Notes under the pieces: generated by a model | What the model was told of the DNA's origin: nothing | Databases searched by the model: none | Seen by the model: only the letters and a program-made list of their open reading frames with translations | Shown here: one piece after another, positions 5,310-18,193 of the stretch | Position numbering within the stretch: position 1 is the first letter of the stretch | Layout: each line of letters begins with the position of its first letter | Position numbers and translations under genes: made by a program | UHGV virus genome: UHGV-0017033 | Direction: 5' to 3' (one strand) | DNA: 21,783 nucleotides | DNA from: a virus

Positions 5310-6221
5310 ATGAACCCAACCACCGACATTCAGGCTTCTGAAGAATTAACCCTGCCCGGCAATCATGCAGCGGCATCTGCTGATGGCTTAGTTGTCGATA
5401 ATGCCAACGACAACGCAGGTCAGGAAGAAGGCTTCGAGATTGTCCTGAAAGACGATGAGAAACCAAAACAAGACCCGGCAACTAATGCTGAATTTGCCCG
5501 CCGCCGCATCGAACGCAAACGCCAGCGTGAGCTTGAGCAACAGATGGAAGCGGTTAAGCGTGGAGAGTTGCCGGAGCACCTGCGGGTGAACCCTGAGTTA
5601 CCAAAACAACCAGACCCTAACGATTATCTTTCCGAAGACGCACTGGCTAAGTATGACTATGACCAGAGCCGCGCACTGGCTGCCTTCCAGCAGGCAAACA
5701 GTGAATGGCAGATCAAGGCTATGGACGCACGAAGCCAGGCTGTAGCCGAGCAGGGCCGCAAAACTCAGGAGTTCACCCAGCAATCAGCGCAATACGTCGA
5801 GGCAGCCCGTAAGCACTACGACGCAGCGGAAAAGCTCAATATCCCTGACTATCAGGAGAAAGAGGATGCATTCATGCAACTGGTGCCGCCAGCAGTCGGT
5901 GCCGACATCATGCGCCTCTTCCCGGAGAAATCCGCTGCTCTCATGTATCACCTTGGTGCTAATCCTGAGAAAACACGCCAGTTGCTGGCGATGGACGGGC
6001 AATCCGCGCTGATTGAACTCACTCGACTGTCAGAACGTTTAACTCTCAAGCCTCGAGCCAAGCCTGTTTCAGAAGCCCCGTTACCTGATGAACCCATTCA
6101 GGGTCACGCTGTTGCTGCAAATATCTCTGCGATTGAAAAGCAGATGGAAGCGGCAGCAAACAAAGGGGATGTAGAGACGTACCGCAAGCTCAAGGCGCAA
6201 CTGAATAAAGGAATTCGATAA
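5310..6221 (+). CDS. Scaffolding protein (P22 gp8-like)
   Basis: 303-aa ORF, same length as recalled for P22 gp8; acidic, helix-rich sequence ending in the coat-binding-like [19 protein letters not shown]; sits between portal and coat. Confidence 0.9.
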
Positions 6222-6743
6222 TTATTTCGATATCGTGATGTTGTTTTCCTCGTCAAACTTTCTGATTACTTCTTTCGCCTCTTCGAATGAAGAACATACT
6301 TTTTGCACTCTTGCATTAAGCAGTCGCTTATGAGCGATCCATCTTTTCCGCGTGTTGCAAAAGTAAACTCCAGATATTCCGCTGGAGTTATTTTTAGATA
6401 GTTTGATTCTATTCCTTTGGTTTGCTGATTTTTTCACAAGACGAAGATTTTCAATTCTGTTGTCGTGGCGAATCCCATTTATATGGTCAATTTCCATGCC
6501 TTCTGGAATATCTCCGTTAAACATCACCCATACGATGCGGTGTGCTAGCCACTTAATGCCGTTAATTCTTATGCGGATATATCCATTGCTTTCTAAAAGA
6601 CCAGCAACTTTCCCAGCGTGTTTTGCATTCCAAACGTTGTGATAGTTGCGATTCTTTTTGTTGTTGAAAAATTCAGGGCTTCTGGCTTTCCAAACCAAAG
6701 AGCCATCGCGGTATTCGAAGTATTCATTCAGTTCCATGTTCAT
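6222..6743 (-). CDS. Free-standing HNH homing endonuclease with a C-terminal AP2-like DNA-binding region
   Basis: 173-aa minus-strand ORF filling the whole scaffold-coat intergenic space. HNH motif EIDHINGIRHDNRIENLRLV...NQRN, and a downstream SGISGVYFCNTRKRWIAHKR segment typical of AP2 domains paired with phage HNH enzymes. The DNA is visibly more AT-rich than the flanking capsid genes. Confidence 0.85.
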   Translation of the reverse strand: MNMELNEYFEYRDGSLVWKARSPEFFNNKKNRNYHNVWNAKHAGKVAGLLESNGYIRIRINGIKWLAHRIVWVMFNGDIPEGMEIDHINGIRHDNRIENLRLVKKSANQRNRIKLSKNNSSGISGVYFCNTRKRWIAHKRLLNARVQKVCSSFEEAKEVIRKFDEENNITISK

Positions 6744-6810
6744 AACCCTAATGCGCTATATGTTGATATAACAATAGTATAGCACATAAAGAAAGTAAGG
6801 TATTCAATAT

Positions 6811-8106
6811 ATGACTCTCAAAGAAGGGCAGTTAGTTACTTACGCTATCGATGAAATCATCGAAACCGTCCAGAACCTGACGCCAATGGCGTCCAAAGTG
6901 ACAAAATACACCCCTCCGGCAGAATCCATGCAACGTTCAAGCAACACCGTGTGGATGCCTGTTGAGCAGGAAGCGCCAACCCAGACTGGCTGGGATTTAA
7001 CTGGCAAAGCAACCGGGATTCTGGAGCTCTCCGTGAAATGCAACATGGGCGATCCGGATAACGATTTCTTCGAGCTTCGTGCAGATGACCTGCGTGATGA
7101 GCGTTCTTACCGTCGCCGCATCCAGGCATCCGCTAAAAAACTGGCGAATAACATTGAGTCAGCAATTGCCAAACAGGCAACTGAAATGGGCTCACTTGTT
7201 GTTCACGATACCCGCGCAATTGGTCCATCTACTGGCCTGTCTGGCTGGGATTTTGTGTCTGATGCAGAGCGCCTGATGTTCTCCCGTGAGCTAAACCGCG
7301 ATATGGGCATCAGTTACTTCCTGAACCCTGACGATTACCGCAAAGCAGGCCGCAACCTGGTAGATGGTGACATCTTCGGGCGCGTTCCTGAAGAAGCGTA
7401 TCGCAACGGTACTATTCAGCGTCAGATTGCTGGCTTTGATGAAATTCTTCGCTCACCGAAACTTCCGGCAGTTACCAAGTCAACCGTTACTGGTGTAACT
7501 GTTTCTGGTGCGCAGAAGTTTAAGCCGCAGGCATACACCCTTGATACCGATGGTAACAAAGAGAACGTCGACAACCGTGTTGCAACGGTGACCGTATCCT
7601 CCACCACCGGATTTAAGCGCGGCGACAAAATCAGTTTCACTGGTGTGAAATTCCTGTCTCAGATGGCGAAGAACGTGCTAACTGATGATGCGACTTTCTC
7701 AATCACCCGTGTGATCGATGGTACTCACATCGAAATCACGCCGAAACCGATTGCACTGGATGACGCGTCACTGACAAAAGAAGAGAAGGCTTACGCTAAC
7801 GTAAACACCTCTCTTGCTGATACCACTCCGGTAAACGTTCTGAACGTGGCAACAACCACCGCTAACGTGTTCTGGGCTGATGACTCAATCCGTCTGCTGT
7901 CTCAGCCGATCCCGGTAACCCATGAACTGTTTGCTGGCATGAAAACGTCTTCCTTCAGCATTCCTGGTATTGGTGTTAACGGCATCTTCGCAACGCAGGG
8001 TGATATCAACACTCTGTCTGGTAAGTGCCGTATTGCTGTGTGGTATTCAGCATGTGCTGTACGACCAGAGGCAATTGGTGTTGGTCTGCCTAATCAGACC
8101 GCGTGA
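6811..8106 (+). CDS. Major capsid (coat) protein (P22 gp5-like, HK97 fold with insertion domain)
   Basis: 431-aa ORF; near-colinear match to my recollection of P22 coat protein ([60 protein letters not shown]). AAGGT Shine-Dalgarno upstream. Confidence 0.93.
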
Positions 8107-8112
8107 TAACCA

Positions 8113-8137
8113 GAGGGAGCTTCGGCTCCCTTTTTAT
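8113..8137 (+). terminator. Intrinsic (rho-independent) terminator-like hairpin immediately after the coat gene
   Basis: GGGAGC-TTCG-GCTCCC perfect 6-bp GC-rich stem with TTCG tetraloop followed by TTTTTAT, 7 nt after the coat stop codon. Confidence 0.6.
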
Positions 8138-8149
8138 CTGGAGACAAGC

Positions 8150-8380
8150 ATGACACACATGGTCTTTCGTCATGGCGACATGAAGAAGTGGAAAGGCGTT
8201 GGATACGACTTTGAAATCGTGAAAGCCGAAGAGCTTCAGGAATATCTGGATGCTGGCTGGTTTGCACATCCTGATGATCTTCTGAAGGATGTTGCAGAGC
8301 CAGAGCCAGAAGAAAAACAGCGTAAAAAGCCTGGTCGAAAACCTAAGGCGGCAGTAGATGAACCTGACAACGAAGGGTGA
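8150..8380 (+). CDS. Small hypothetical protein between coat and gp4 (about 76 aa)
   Basis: ATG at 8150 preceded by GGAGAC; this is the in-frame internal start of track ORF 7970..8380, whose upstream part overlaps the coat gene. Lys/Pro-rich tail [19 protein letters not shown]22 has a small ORF at this position (recalled). Confidence 0.5.
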
Positions 8381-17189: not shown

Positions 17190-17262
17190 AGTTGAAGCCC
17201 CAACTGCGGGAACAGTCAGGGCTTCGGTTGTCAGTAAATCCGTGGAGAAAAACCAACATGAA
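17190..17262 (-). ncRNA. sar: Putative sar antisense RNA (small antirepressor-regulating RNA) in the arc-ant intercistronic region
   Basis: By analogy with P22, where a short antisense RNA is transcribed from the arc-ant spacer and pairs with the ant ribosome-binding site. The minus strand here contains inverted repeats GAAGCCC/GGGCTTC. Exact ends are not determinable from sequence alone. Confidence 0.4.
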
Positions 17263-18193
17263 TAGTATAGCAATTTTAGAAGCAGTGAACACCTCTTACG
17301 TACCATTCAACGGTCAGCAAATTATCACCGCCATGGCTGCCGGAGTTGCATATGTTGCGATGAAGCCAATCGTTGAAAACCTTGGAATGAGCTGGTCAAC
17401 GCAGCAAACAAAACTCATGAAGCAGATTAGCAAATTCAACTGTGTTCATATGAACATGGTTGCCGCTGATGGGAAGCTTCGTAAGCTACTCTGCCTTCCT
17501 TTGAAGGAGTTAAATGGATGGCTGTTCAGCATCAACCCTGAGAAAGTTCGTGCTGACATCCGTGATAAACTGATTCAGTACCAGGAGGAATGCTTTAGCG
17601 TGCTGCATGACTACTGGACTAAAGGCCATGTAGTTAACCCACGCAAAGCTAAAAAGGCGTTGCCGGGTAAAATCACCACTGAACAGCAGGAAGCCATAAA
17701 ACAACTCGTCATGAGTCGCGGTCAGTCTCTGCCAAAAGAAAAACAGGCTAAGGCGATGATCACCATGTGGTCGTCACTGAAATCCCATTTTGGATGTTCG
17801 TACAAAGAAATCAGTGAGGAGCAGTTTACCGAAGCACTATCACTTGCAGCTCGAGTTCCACTTGAAGGTGAGTTCATTGGAAAACAAGAGAAGAAAACCA
17901 ACGAGCTTTCTGCAAAAGAAGCAAACAGCCTTGTATGGTTATGGGATTATGCCAACCGCTCACAGGCATTATTCCGCGAACTGTATCCGGCGCTAAAACA
18001 AATTCAATCGAACTATTCCGGCAGATGCTACGACTACGGTCATGAATTCTCGTATGTTATCGGAATGGCGAGAGACGTTTTAATCAATCACACACGAGAT
18101 GTTGATATCAATGAGCCAGACGGACCAACGAATCTTTCCGCATGGATGAGACTTAAGAATAAAGAATTACCTCCTTCAGTACATAACTACTGA
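17258..18193 (+). CDS. ant: Antirepressor Ant
   Basis: Internal ATG at 17258 gives [33 protein letters not shown]..., matching the P22 Ant N-terminus as recalled; immediately downstream of arc as in immI. The track ORF extends upstream to 17192. Confidence 0.85.

What the first reader, a model, noticed from the sequence alone, without database searches (positions are those of the whole stretch)
6222..6810. HNH homing endonuclease occupying the scaffold-coat intergenic region on the opposite strand
The scaffold and coat genes are normally near-adjacent in P22-like late operons. Here about 590 bp of AT-rich DNA is inserted between them, encoding a 173-aa protein with a clear HNH motif (DHINGIRHDNRIENLRLV...NQRN) and an AP2-like tail, on the strand opposite the late operon. 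Its stop codon abuts the scaffold stop. This is the signature of a free-standing homing endonuclease that has invaded a conserved capsid gene junction, where it could promote its own spread during co-infection. An antisense insertion inside the late transcript could also perturb scaffold/coat expression.
Basis: partly seen in the sequence, partly recalled or inferred. Interest (0 to 1): 0.6.

Follow-up and report, generated by a model that had tools for sequence, protein, structure and literature searches.

The report
Mobile HNH endonuclease between capsid genes
A selfish, probably self-copying nuclease gene sits between the scaffold and coat genes of this P22-like E. coli phage and brings a rewritten start of the coat gene with it; this is a clean new example of a well-known kind of element, not a new kind.

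Summary
A 589-bp, 38% GC insert (6222-6810) lies between scaffold and coat and encodes, on the minus strand, an intact 173-aa HNH_3 endonuclease. It has an I-HmuI-like core and an AP2-like C-terminal fold.

Close relatives have an empty site where the scaffold stop and coat start overlap (TAATG). About 9% of E. coli prophages of this lineage carry the insert (20 of 218 genomes), as do 11 of 80 IMG/VR contigs.

Every filled copy also carries a recoded coat 5' end: 14 changes in nt 1-39, 11 of them synonymous, against about 2% divergence elsewhere. So the carrier genome has no intact copy of the empty-site junction.

- The cassette is 2.5-4.5 times less diverse than its flanks, and the flanks do not separate filled from empty genomes.
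- Dewey (filled) versus Bas106 (empty) shows a ~3.4-kb conversion-like patch centred on the insert.
- Eight empty genomes carry a chimeric tract.
- Orthologues of 82, 74 and 58% identity occupy the same junction in diverged P22-like contigs, under strong purifying selection.

Verdict: a free-standing HNH homing endonuclease gene, a new member of a known kind. Cleavage itself is untested.

The parts
5310..6221 (+). Scaffolding protein gene (left flank). Its last 15 nt (6207-6221, AAAGGAATTCGATAA) hold the coat ribosome-binding site in genomes without the insert.
   Evidence: Pfam PF09306, E=4.8e-180. Identical to empty-site relatives up to the stop codon.
6222..6743 (-). Free-standing HNH endonuclease gene, 173 codons plus stop. 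All 22 copies examined are intact.
   Evidence: PADLOC 'HEase' models, E=1.2e-11.
6414..6548 (-). HNH_3 catalytic core (residues 66-110). D86-H87, N95 and N108/N111 are invariant among 13 homologues. It aligns with the DH...N...N core of I-HmuI.
6246..6383 (-). C-terminal AP2-like DNA-binding domain (residues ~121-166). The model shows three beta strands plus one helix.
   Evidence: Pfam AP2 is sub-threshold. Homologues carry a precomputed PF00847 hit. Model pLDDT is 76-91 in this region. Foldseek hits AP2 domain 3IGM with probability 0.85.
6776..6784 (-). Candidate extended -10 promoter element for the HNH gene (minus strand, TGCTATACT). A -10-like element is kept in all four orthologous lineages (TGCTATAAT, TGCTATACT, TTGCAT-17-TATAAT).
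   Evidence: Read by eye. It was not called by the two-hexamer scan. Inferred only.
6796..6810 (+). Degenerate second copy (11 of 15 positions) of the scaffold 3' end. It supplies a new Shine-Dalgarno sequence (TAAGGT) for coat in place of the TAATG overlap.
   Evidence: Sequence comparison. Conserved in L005, L006 and L010.
6811..6849 (+). Recoded 5' end of coat (nt 1-39). It has 14 substitutions relative to every empty-site relative (11 synonymous; A2T, N4K, L13I). It is present in all filled copies and is the predicted cleavage-resistant version of the target.
6811..8106 (+). Major coat protein gene (right flank).
   Evidence: Pfam PF11651, E=1.3e-163.

Best explanation
The segment 6222-6849 is a free-standing homing endonuclease cassette. 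It consists of an antisense HNH-AP2 endonuclease gene, a short spacer and a recoded copy of the scaffold-coat junction. The spacer carries the gene's own promoter-like element and a replacement ribosome-binding site for coat.

Inferred mechanism: when a carrier genome and a related P22-like genome without the insert share a cell, the enzyme cuts or nicks the empty junction. This could happen in co-infection, or when a phage superinfects a lysogen. The predicted target lies in roughly the first 40 nt of coat, around the conserved GAAGGTCA. The break is then repaired by recombination using the carrier as template, which copies the gene plus flanking markers into the recipient. The carrier is protected because its junction is split by the insert and rewritten at 14 of 39 positions.

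Shown here: the gene, its conserved catalytic residues, the precise presence/absence polymorphism, the strict linkage to the recoded tract, the lower diversity of the cassette, and purifying selection on the protein. Inferred: cleavage itself, the position of the target, the role of the tract in resistance, and the promoter.
For: - **Enzyme.** Pfam HNH_3 E=3.9e-22. The best solved-structure match is I-HmuI, by sequence (E=8.7e-4) and by fold (probability 1.00). D86/H87/N95/N108/N111 are invariant.
- **Empty sites.** Four sequenced phages have 96-97% identical flanks and an empty TAATG junction. 20 of 218 E. coli genomes are filled, as are 11 of 80 IMG/VR loci. All 22 species-representative prophages across Enterobacterales are empty.
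- **Recoded tract.** There are 14 mismatches in coat nt 1-39, then none until nt 171. All 20 filled E. coli genomes and all 11 filled IMG/VR loci carry the tract; none of the 69 empty IMG/VR loci do. The window holds no copy of the wild-type junction, even allowing 3 mismatches.
- **Diversity.** In 20 distinct filled genomes, cassette pi is 0.43%, against 1.1% and 1.9% for the flanks. Flank diversity within filled genomes equals that between filled and empty genomes (about 2.1%). Seven of the eight fetched prophage copies encode the same HNH protein (WP_029403254.1) next to differing coat and portal proteins.
- **Conversion-like patch.** Dewey versus Bas106 shows 1 substitution in 3.5 kb, then about 2% divergence from roughly 650 nt left to 2.1 kb right of the insert, then near-identity again.
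- **Chimeric alleles.** Eight empty genomes have wild-type coat nt 1-9 followed by recoded nt 10-39.
- **Orthologues.** HNH genes of 82, 74 and 58% identity sit at the same junction and in the same orientation in diverged P22-like contigs. pN/pS is 0.096/0.679 for window versus L005, similar to coat. All four filled lineages have GGG at coat codon 6, whereas the 21 in-frame empty species representatives have GGT or GGC.
- **Literature.** HNH+AP2 is a described homing endonuclease architecture, and such genes cluster next to essential and capsid genes (PMC10448857).
Against: - No cleavage assay exists, and the target position rests only on polymorphism.
- At deep divergence the HNH gene diverges in step with its flanks (nt identity 79/72/61% against coat 80.5/71/68.5%). 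This fits long vertical residence as well as repeated homing within lineages.
- The Dewey/Bas106 patch could be ordinary mosaic recombination; these phages are mosaic elsewhere.
- Lower cassette diversity could partly reflect the lack of diverged alleles to recombine with.
- The recoded tract could be hitch-hiking donor sequence rather than a selected resistance allele.
- The eight chimeric genomes share a distinct coat sub-lineage, so their tract could be native rather than converted.
- The AP2 domain fails Pfam's threshold.
Confidence: 0.78

Rival explanations
1. The gene is kept because it benefits the phage or lysogen. It would be expressed from its own promoter, possibly in the prophage state, and cut the coat gene start of related phages that lack it. 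That would give interference competition or superinfection exclusion. Homing would be a by-product. This rival overlaps with the best explanation rather than excluding it.
For: Purifying selection is as strong as on coat, and all 22 copies are intact with no decayed copies seen. The gene has been associated with this junction across lineages down to 58% identity. It is antisense, with a conserved -10-like element that would be independent of the late operon. An intron endonuclease acting in competition between phages has been reported (PMC11620839, listed), as has marker exclusion by expressed HNH enzymes (PMC12724721).
Against: Only about 9-14% of the lineage carries it, so any benefit is not large or general. 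There are no expression data. The promoter is a consensus match read by eye, and the scan did not call it.
Confidence: 0.2
2. The insert is a passive moron. It entered once by illegitimate recombination together with a few donor coat codons, and has since been shuffled among backgrounds by ordinary homologous recombination. The nuclease would play no part in its spread, being inactive or acting elsewhere.
For: P22-like genomes are highly mosaic. The tract resembles the coat 5' end of the L005 lineage, as expected for donor sequence carried along. Low cassette diversity follows from a single recent origin under any mode of spread.
Against: The catalytic residues and the whole protein are under strong purifying selection. 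The same gene occupies the same junction in four diverged lineages. GGG-CAG at coat codons 6-7 is kept in all four lineages while neighbouring synonymous sites have changed, and GGG is absent from the 21 in-frame empty representatives. No filled copy with a wild-type tract exists among 31 filled copies, even though linkage to flanks only tens of nt further out is already broken.
Confidence: 0.1
3. It is a packaging-associated HNH protein, like HK97 gp74, that assists terminase in cutting DNA during head filling.
For: It lies in the head-morphogenesis operon, two genes downstream of portal.
Against: About 90% of near-identical relatives, and all 22 representatives from other species, assemble without it. 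It is antisense to the operon and not adjacent to terminase. It belongs to HNH_3 and has a sequence-specific AP2-like domain, with I-HmuI as the best structural match.
Confidence: 0.02

Closest known systems
Phage T4 free-standing homing endonucleases: MobE (HNH, between nrdA and nrdB) and SegF/SegG/SegB (GIY-YIG), i.e. 'intronless homing'
   Same: An independent ORF inserted between conserved essential genes. It is present in some relatives and absent in others, with polymorphism around the insertion site and co-conversion of flanking markers (PMC2790892, PMC2988022 and PMC2330249, listed; mechanistic details are from general knowledge of these papers).
   Different: The host is a temperate P22-like podovirus, found mostly as an E. 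coli prophage. The gene is antisense inside the late capsid operon. The DNA-binding module is AP2-like. No activity has been shown.
I-HmuI (Bacillus phage SPO1, PDB 1U3E)
   Same: It is the best solved-structure match by sequence (E=8.7e-4, residues 35-120) and by fold (probability 1.00). The N-terminal beta region and the HNH core are of the same type.
   Different: I-HmuI is encoded in a group I intron, nicks one strand, and ends in a helix-turn-helix module (own knowledge). This gene is free-standing and ends in an AP2-like domain. Identity is about 19%.
HNH-AP2 homing endonuclease family (Magnani et al. 2004, as cited in PMC10448857; the 'IPA-HNH' genes of vibriophage ICP1)
   Same: An N-terminal HNH domain plus a C-terminal AP2 domain. 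Members are free-standing and frequently lie next to essential or capsid genes.
   Different: The ICP1 IPA-HNH domains are too divergent for the Pfam HNH_3 profile, whereas this protein is a strong HNH_3 match. Its AP2 domain is the weak part.
Homing endonuclease insertion between terminase and portal in P22-like Salmonella phage SEN22
   Same: A homing endonuclease gene reported as a unique insertion at another gene junction of a P22-like late operon (PMC5261728). A similar extra HNH gene was seen here in prophage L013.
   Different: A different junction and a different gene. No target-site analysis was reported in the passages read.
I-HmuI-like HNH endonucleases of lactococcal Skunavirus phages
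   Same: The enzymes cluster by insertion location, vary in presence between close relatives, and show marker exclusion when expressed (PMC12724721 abstract).
   Different: Virulent Gram-positive siphoviruses. No sequence relationship was tested here.

Membership tests
HNH (beta-beta-alpha-metal) endonucleases, Pfam HNH_3 | Profile match above the curated threshold | tested here: met
   78.1 bits against a cut-off of 24.8, E=3.9e-22, residues 66-110 covering profile positions 2-46 of 46.
HNH (beta-beta-alpha-metal) endonucleases, Pfam HNH_3 | Conserved catalytic His preceded by Asp, plus the structural and metal-binding Asn residues | tested here: met
   D86, H87, N95, N108 and N111 are invariant in 13 homologues. 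They align with the DH...N...N core of I-HmuI.
HNH (beta-beta-alpha-metal) endonucleases, Pfam HNH_3 | Metal-dependent DNA cleavage | not testable with these tools
   Requires purified protein.
Free-standing homing endonuclease gene | Own ORF in an intergenic position, not inside an intron or intein | tested here: met
   It lies between the scaffold stop and the coat start, and both flanking ORFs are intact.
Free-standing homing endonuclease gene | Sporadic presence at one precise site among close relatives, with an identifiable empty site | tested here: met
   20 of 218 E. coli genomes, 11 of 80 IMG/VR loci and 2 of 8 close phage records are filled. The boundaries are identical and the empty site reads TAATG.
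Free-standing homing endonuclease gene | The carrier genome lacks the sequence found at the empty site (self-protection) | tested here: met
   The junction is split by the insert and changed at 14 of 39 positions. The window has no match to the wild-type 30-mer with up to 3 mismatches. No filled copy with a wild-type tract exists among 31 filled copies. That the change actually confers resistance is inferred.
Free-standing homing endonuclease gene | The gene's history differs from that of its flanks (horizontal spread) | tested here: met
   Cassette pi is 0.43% against 1.1-1.9% for the flanks. The flanks show no differentiation between filled and empty genomes, and the nearest flank neighbours of filled genomes are often empty genomes.
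Free-standing homing endonuclease gene | Co-conversion of flanking markers around the insert | tested here: inconclusive
   Dewey versus Bas106 shows a ~3.4-kb patch of about 2% divergence centred on the insert, and there are 8 chimeric empty alleles. Both fit co-conversion, but ordinary mosaicism is not excluded.
Free-standing homing endonuclease gene | Site-specific cleavage of the empty allele and over-transmission in crosses | not testable with these tools
   Needs cleavage assays and Dewey x Bas106 mixed infections.
HNH-AP2 homing endonuclease architecture | C-terminal AP2 DNA-binding domain | tested here: inconclusive
   Pfam AP2 scores 17.5 bits against 33.3, matching only profile positions 1-19. 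The model shows strands 126-129, 134-141 and 144-150 plus helix 153-166. Foldseek hits AP2 domain 3IGM with probability 0.85 and E=0.14. Many homologues carry PF00847.
Packaging-associated HNH (HK97 gp74 type) | Conserved partner of terminase, present in all relatives that package the same way | tested here: not met
   Absent from about 90% of near-identical relatives and from all 22 representatives of other species. It is antisense and not next to terminase.
Intron-encoded HNH endonucleases (I-HmuI type) | Located within a self-splicing intron | tested here: not met
   It is intergenic and neither flanking gene is interrupted. No Rfam intron search was run.

The most novel reading that the evidence does not exclude
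The element may be more than a parasite: a long-lived, selectively maintained weapon of temperate P22-like phages. It would be transcribed from its own sigma-70-type promoter even in the lysogen. It would cut the conserved start of the coat gene of incoming relatives that lack it, so the prophage would exclude, or convert, competing phages. The recoded coat start would act as the matching immunity allele, and the eight chimeric empty alleles would be escape variants that acquired immunity without the nuclease.
Probability: 0.2. Interest if true: 0.6.

Novelty: new member of a known kind. Interest (0 to 1): 0.38.

Why it matters
Free-standing homing endonucleases have been worked out mainly in T4-like and other virulent phages. 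This one offers a natural and experimentally convenient case in a temperate P22-like phage of E. coli K-12.

Cultured phages with the insert (Dewey, Louie) and without it (CurroJimenez/Bas106, IME10) already exist. Their flanks are 96-99.8% identical, and natural chimeric junctions are also available. Target mapping, resistance determinants, conversion-tract lengths and any competitive benefit can therefore all be tested directly.

The case also shows how such an element can reshape the translation start of the most highly expressed capsid gene. It replaces the stop/start overlap with a new ribosome-binding site and a non-preferred GGG codon. In addition, nuclease insertions mark recombination boundaries in the otherwise conserved P22-type head module. 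For annotation, the practical point is that the mobile unit extends 39 nt into coat.

Tried and rejected
- **RNA hairpins upstream of the HNH start codon.** Short inverted repeats are visible in all four lineages, but their folding energies are no better than shuffles (z from -0.05 to +0.59). Rejected.
- **Terminator-like hairpin on the late-operon strand at 6366-6389.** It overlaps the codons for NSSGISGV. It is weaker in L005 and absent in L006 and L010. Judged incidental.
- **23-nt imperfect inverted repeat bracketing the cassette (6214-6236 / 6842-6864, 78% complementary).** It is one of 12 similar pairs in 751 nt. It is built from recurring ATCGA codons and is not evident in L005 (by eye). 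Judged to be chance.
- **A 102-aa truncated copy (P0005) as evidence of decay.** It comes from the GenBank version of strain EEC_W5, whose RefSeq version has an intact gene. It is probably an assembly error.
- **Two-hexamer promoter scan.** It found no promoter in the spacer. The -10-like element reported here is a by-eye comparison across lineages only.
- **Closer HNH relatives at other genomic sites.** Among 50,697 phage records the next best hit after Dewey and Louie is at most about 50% identical. No donor from a different site was found.
- **Defence-system membership.** PADLOC returns only generic 'homing endonuclease' models.
- **Literature.** The announcement paper for Huey, Dewey and Louie does not mention the gene. 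Four full-text searches found no description of a scaffold-coat HNH in P22-like phages.

Full report
**1. What is in the sequence**

The window is the late and integration half of a mosaic P22-like (Lederbergvirus-type) E. coli phage or prophage. It runs from small and large terminase through portal, scaffold, coat, gp4/gp10/needle, ejection proteins, an antirepressor-like gene and tailspike to integrase. The best overall matches are phages Louie and Dewey, at about 95.7% identity over 65-69% of the window.

Scaffold (5310-6221) and coat (6811-8106) are separated by exactly 589 bp of 38.0% GC DNA. The flanking genes have 53.1% and 50.7% GC.

The minus strand of this stretch carries a 173-codon ORF (6222-6743). 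Its stop codon abuts the scaffold stop (TAA|TTA).

**2. The protein**

- It matches Pfam HNH_3 at 78.1 bits (cut-off 24.8, E=3.9e-22).
- It matches PHROG 99 'HNH endonuclease' (E=3.7e-50) and PADLOC 'homing endonuclease' models.
- The best solved relative is the SPO1 intron endonuclease I-HmuI, by sequence (1U3E, E=8.7e-4) and by fold (Foldseek probability 1.00).
- In an alignment of 13 homologues, D86, H87, N95, N108 and N111 are invariant, as is the DNRIENLR block.
- The C-terminal 50 residues reach only 17.5 bits on Pfam AP2 (cut-off 33.3).
- An AlphaFold model (mean pLDDT 82) places three strands and a helix there. Foldseek retrieves Plasmodium and Toxoplasma AP2 domains (probability 0.69-0.85), and many homologues carry a precomputed AP2 hit.

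HNH plus AP2 is a described homing-endonuclease architecture (PMC10448857). I rate the AP2 assignment likely but not proven.

**3. Empty sites and frequency**

Phages IME10, HZ41, APC_JM3.2 and CurroJimenez/Bas106 have flanks 96-97% identical to the window. In them the scaffold stop and coat start overlap (TAATG) and no insert is present. Dewey and Louie carry the insert at 99% identity.

| Sample | With this capsid module | Filled | Empty |
|---|---|---|---|
| 5,426 complete E. coli genomes | 218 (at 95% or better) | 20 | 197 |
| IMG/VR viral contigs with this coat | 80 | 11 | 69 |
| P22-type prophages from species-representative genomes, Escherichia to Morganella | 22 | 0 | 22 |

The gene is therefore not ancestral to all relatives, and the second refutation criterion also fails.

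**4.

Against every empty-site relative, the window differs at 14 positions within coat nt 1-39 (nt 4, 6, 7, 9, 12, 18, 21, 22, 24, 27, 30, 33, 37, 39). It then shows no difference until nt 171, and the background is about 2%. Eleven of the changes are synonymous; the protein changes are A2T, N4K and L13I.

A synthetic 'filled junction with wild-type tract' query shows that all 20 filled E. coli genomes carry the recoded tract. In IME/VR terms the association is 11 of 11 filled against 0 of 69 empty (IMG/VR sample). The window contains no copy of the wild-type junction, even allowing three mismatches.

The last 15 nt of the insert (TAAGGTATTCAATAT) are an 11-of-15 copy of the scaffold 3' end (AAAGGAATTCGATAA). 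They provide a new Shine-Dalgarno sequence for coat.

The unit that travels therefore runs from 6222 to about 6849. It amounts to the nuclease gene plus a rewritten copy of the whole junction from -15 to +39.

**5. Evidence for movement**

- **Diversity.** In 20 distinct filled genomes the cassette has pi = 0.43% (16 segregating sites in 589 nt). The left flank has 1.1% (78 in 1400 nt) and the coat flank 1.9% (105 in 1250 nt).
- **No sweep in the flanks.** Diversity right next to the cassette is as high in filled as in empty genomes.
- **No differentiation.** In the first set of 10 filled and 8 empty genomes, flank divergence between the two classes (2.1%) equals that within each class. Nearest flank neighbours of filled genomes are frequently empty genomes.
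- **Protein identity.** Seven of the eight fetched prophage copies encode the identical HNH protein next to differing portal and coat proteins, and the same scaffold protein accession occurs in filled and empty genomes.
- **Dewey versus Bas106.** These phages have one substitution in 3.5 kb upstream. There are then five substitutions in the last 650 nt of scaffold, the insert, the 14-change tract, and about 2% divergence for 2.1 kb. Near-identity then returns. This is the shape of a conversion tract centred on the insert and skewed towards coat. These phages are mosaic elsewhere, however, so it is suggestive rather than decisive.
- **Chimeric alleles.** Eight empty E. coli genomes have wild-type coat nt 1-9 joined to recoded nt 10-39. 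Outside the tract their flanks are no closer to the window than other empties. Their coat genes do form their own sub-lineage. They could be repair products that gained the tract without the gene, or a naturally variant allele in which the element first settled. Either way, they are predicted to resist cleavage.

**6. Deep history**

Metagenomic HNH proteins of 82, 74 and 58% identity lie in the same place and orientation between P22-type scaffold and coat genes. Their nucleotide divergence tracks that of the flanking genes.

The protein is under strong purifying selection: pN 0.096 against pS 0.679 for window versus L005, comparable to coat. All 22 close copies are intact.

All four filled lineages share GAAGGGCAG at coat codons 5-7, while neighbouring synonymous sites have diverged. 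Coat nt 18 is the only position at which all four filled lineages (G) differ from all 21 in-frame empty species representatives (T in 17, C in 4). GGG is a non-preferred glycine codon at the start of a very highly expressed gene (own knowledge). I take this as the best pointer to where the enzyme reads its target, and it is an inference.

**7. Mechanism proposed**

Shown: the points in sections 1-6. Inferred: the enzyme recognises the conserved scaffold-coat junction and coat start of genomes without the insert and nicks or cuts there. Phage or host recombination then repairs the break from the carrier genome, copying the gene, the new ribosome-binding site and the recoded tract. The carrier is immune because its junction is split and rewritten.

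A -10-like element on the minus strand is conserved in all four lineages (TGCTATACT at 6784-6776; TGCTATAAT, TGCTATACT and TTGCAT-17-TATAAT in the orthologues). This suggests transcription independent of the late operon. The consensus scan did not call it.

**8. Rivals**

- A benefit-to-phage reading (exclusion of competitors) fits the purifying selection and long residence, and is not exclusive of homing.
- A passive-moron reading is disfavoured by the conserved catalytic site, by the recurrence at one junction in four lineages, and by the unbroken linkage to the tract when linkage a few tens of nt further out is gone.
- A packaging role of the HK97 gp74 type is excluded by its absence from most relatives.

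**9. Comparison with known systems and novelty**

The element works like the T4 free-standing endonucleases (MobE, SegF/G/B) and resembles I-HmuI in its catalytic half. A homing endonuclease at another P22-like late-operon junction (terminase-portal, phage SEN22) is already in the literature (PMC5261728). Homing endonuclease genes next to capsid genes are a described trend (PMC10448857).

Databases label this gene simply 'HNH endonuclease'. I found no paper describing it or its recoded target.

It is a new member of a known kind. Interest is moderate, mainly because cultured filled and empty phages and natural chimeric alleles make it directly testable.

Noticed in passing
L188 (Pantoea eucrina LMG 5346 prophage), about 1486-1512 of the locus: The coat 5' end reads ATGGCACTTTCCGAAGG-CAGATG. 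This is a 1-nt deletion exactly at coat nt 18, the position that separates filled from empty lineages, and it frameshifts coat. It could be a sequencing error, a dead prophage or a repair scar.
   Followed up: no
L013 (E. coli 19451123 prophage), 1-278 and 6440-7165 of the locus: The same late operon carries two further HNH genes. One lies antisense between terminase and portal. The other splits the gp10 gene, leaving a gp10 fragment beside it. The P22-type head module can therefore hold several nuclease insertions.
   Followed up: no
L026 (phage Dewey, whole genome): Six more CDS are annotated 'HNH endonuclease' in the early, nin and lysis regions. One of them gave the second, weaker match to the query protein.
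   Followed up: no
window 8107-8357: The short region between coat and gp4 is a variable slot. Relatives carry different small ORFs or a WDGH-domain gene here, and the ungapped comparison of the window with Dewey breaks down from about 8136 onwards.
   Followed up: no
L011, L012 and six other E. coli genomes (ECONIH6, PEC301, NMBU_W05E18, AVS0578, 98195, W46, UID2309220041, LS992166): These empty junctions have wild-type coat nt 1-9 and recoded nt 10-39. Their coat genes carry a 3-nt insertion and form a separate sub-lineage, 2.4-2.7% from the others.
   Followed up: partly
window 17192-18193: A 333-aa ORF with P22_AR N- and C-terminal domains (antirepressor-like) lies between the ejection-protein genes and the tailspike. 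It is preceded by two small ORFs with no Pfam match.
   Followed up: no
window 6366-6389: A terminator-like hairpin followed by a T-run lies on the late-operon strand inside the HNH gene. It is not conserved in orthologues L006 and L010.
   Followed up: yes
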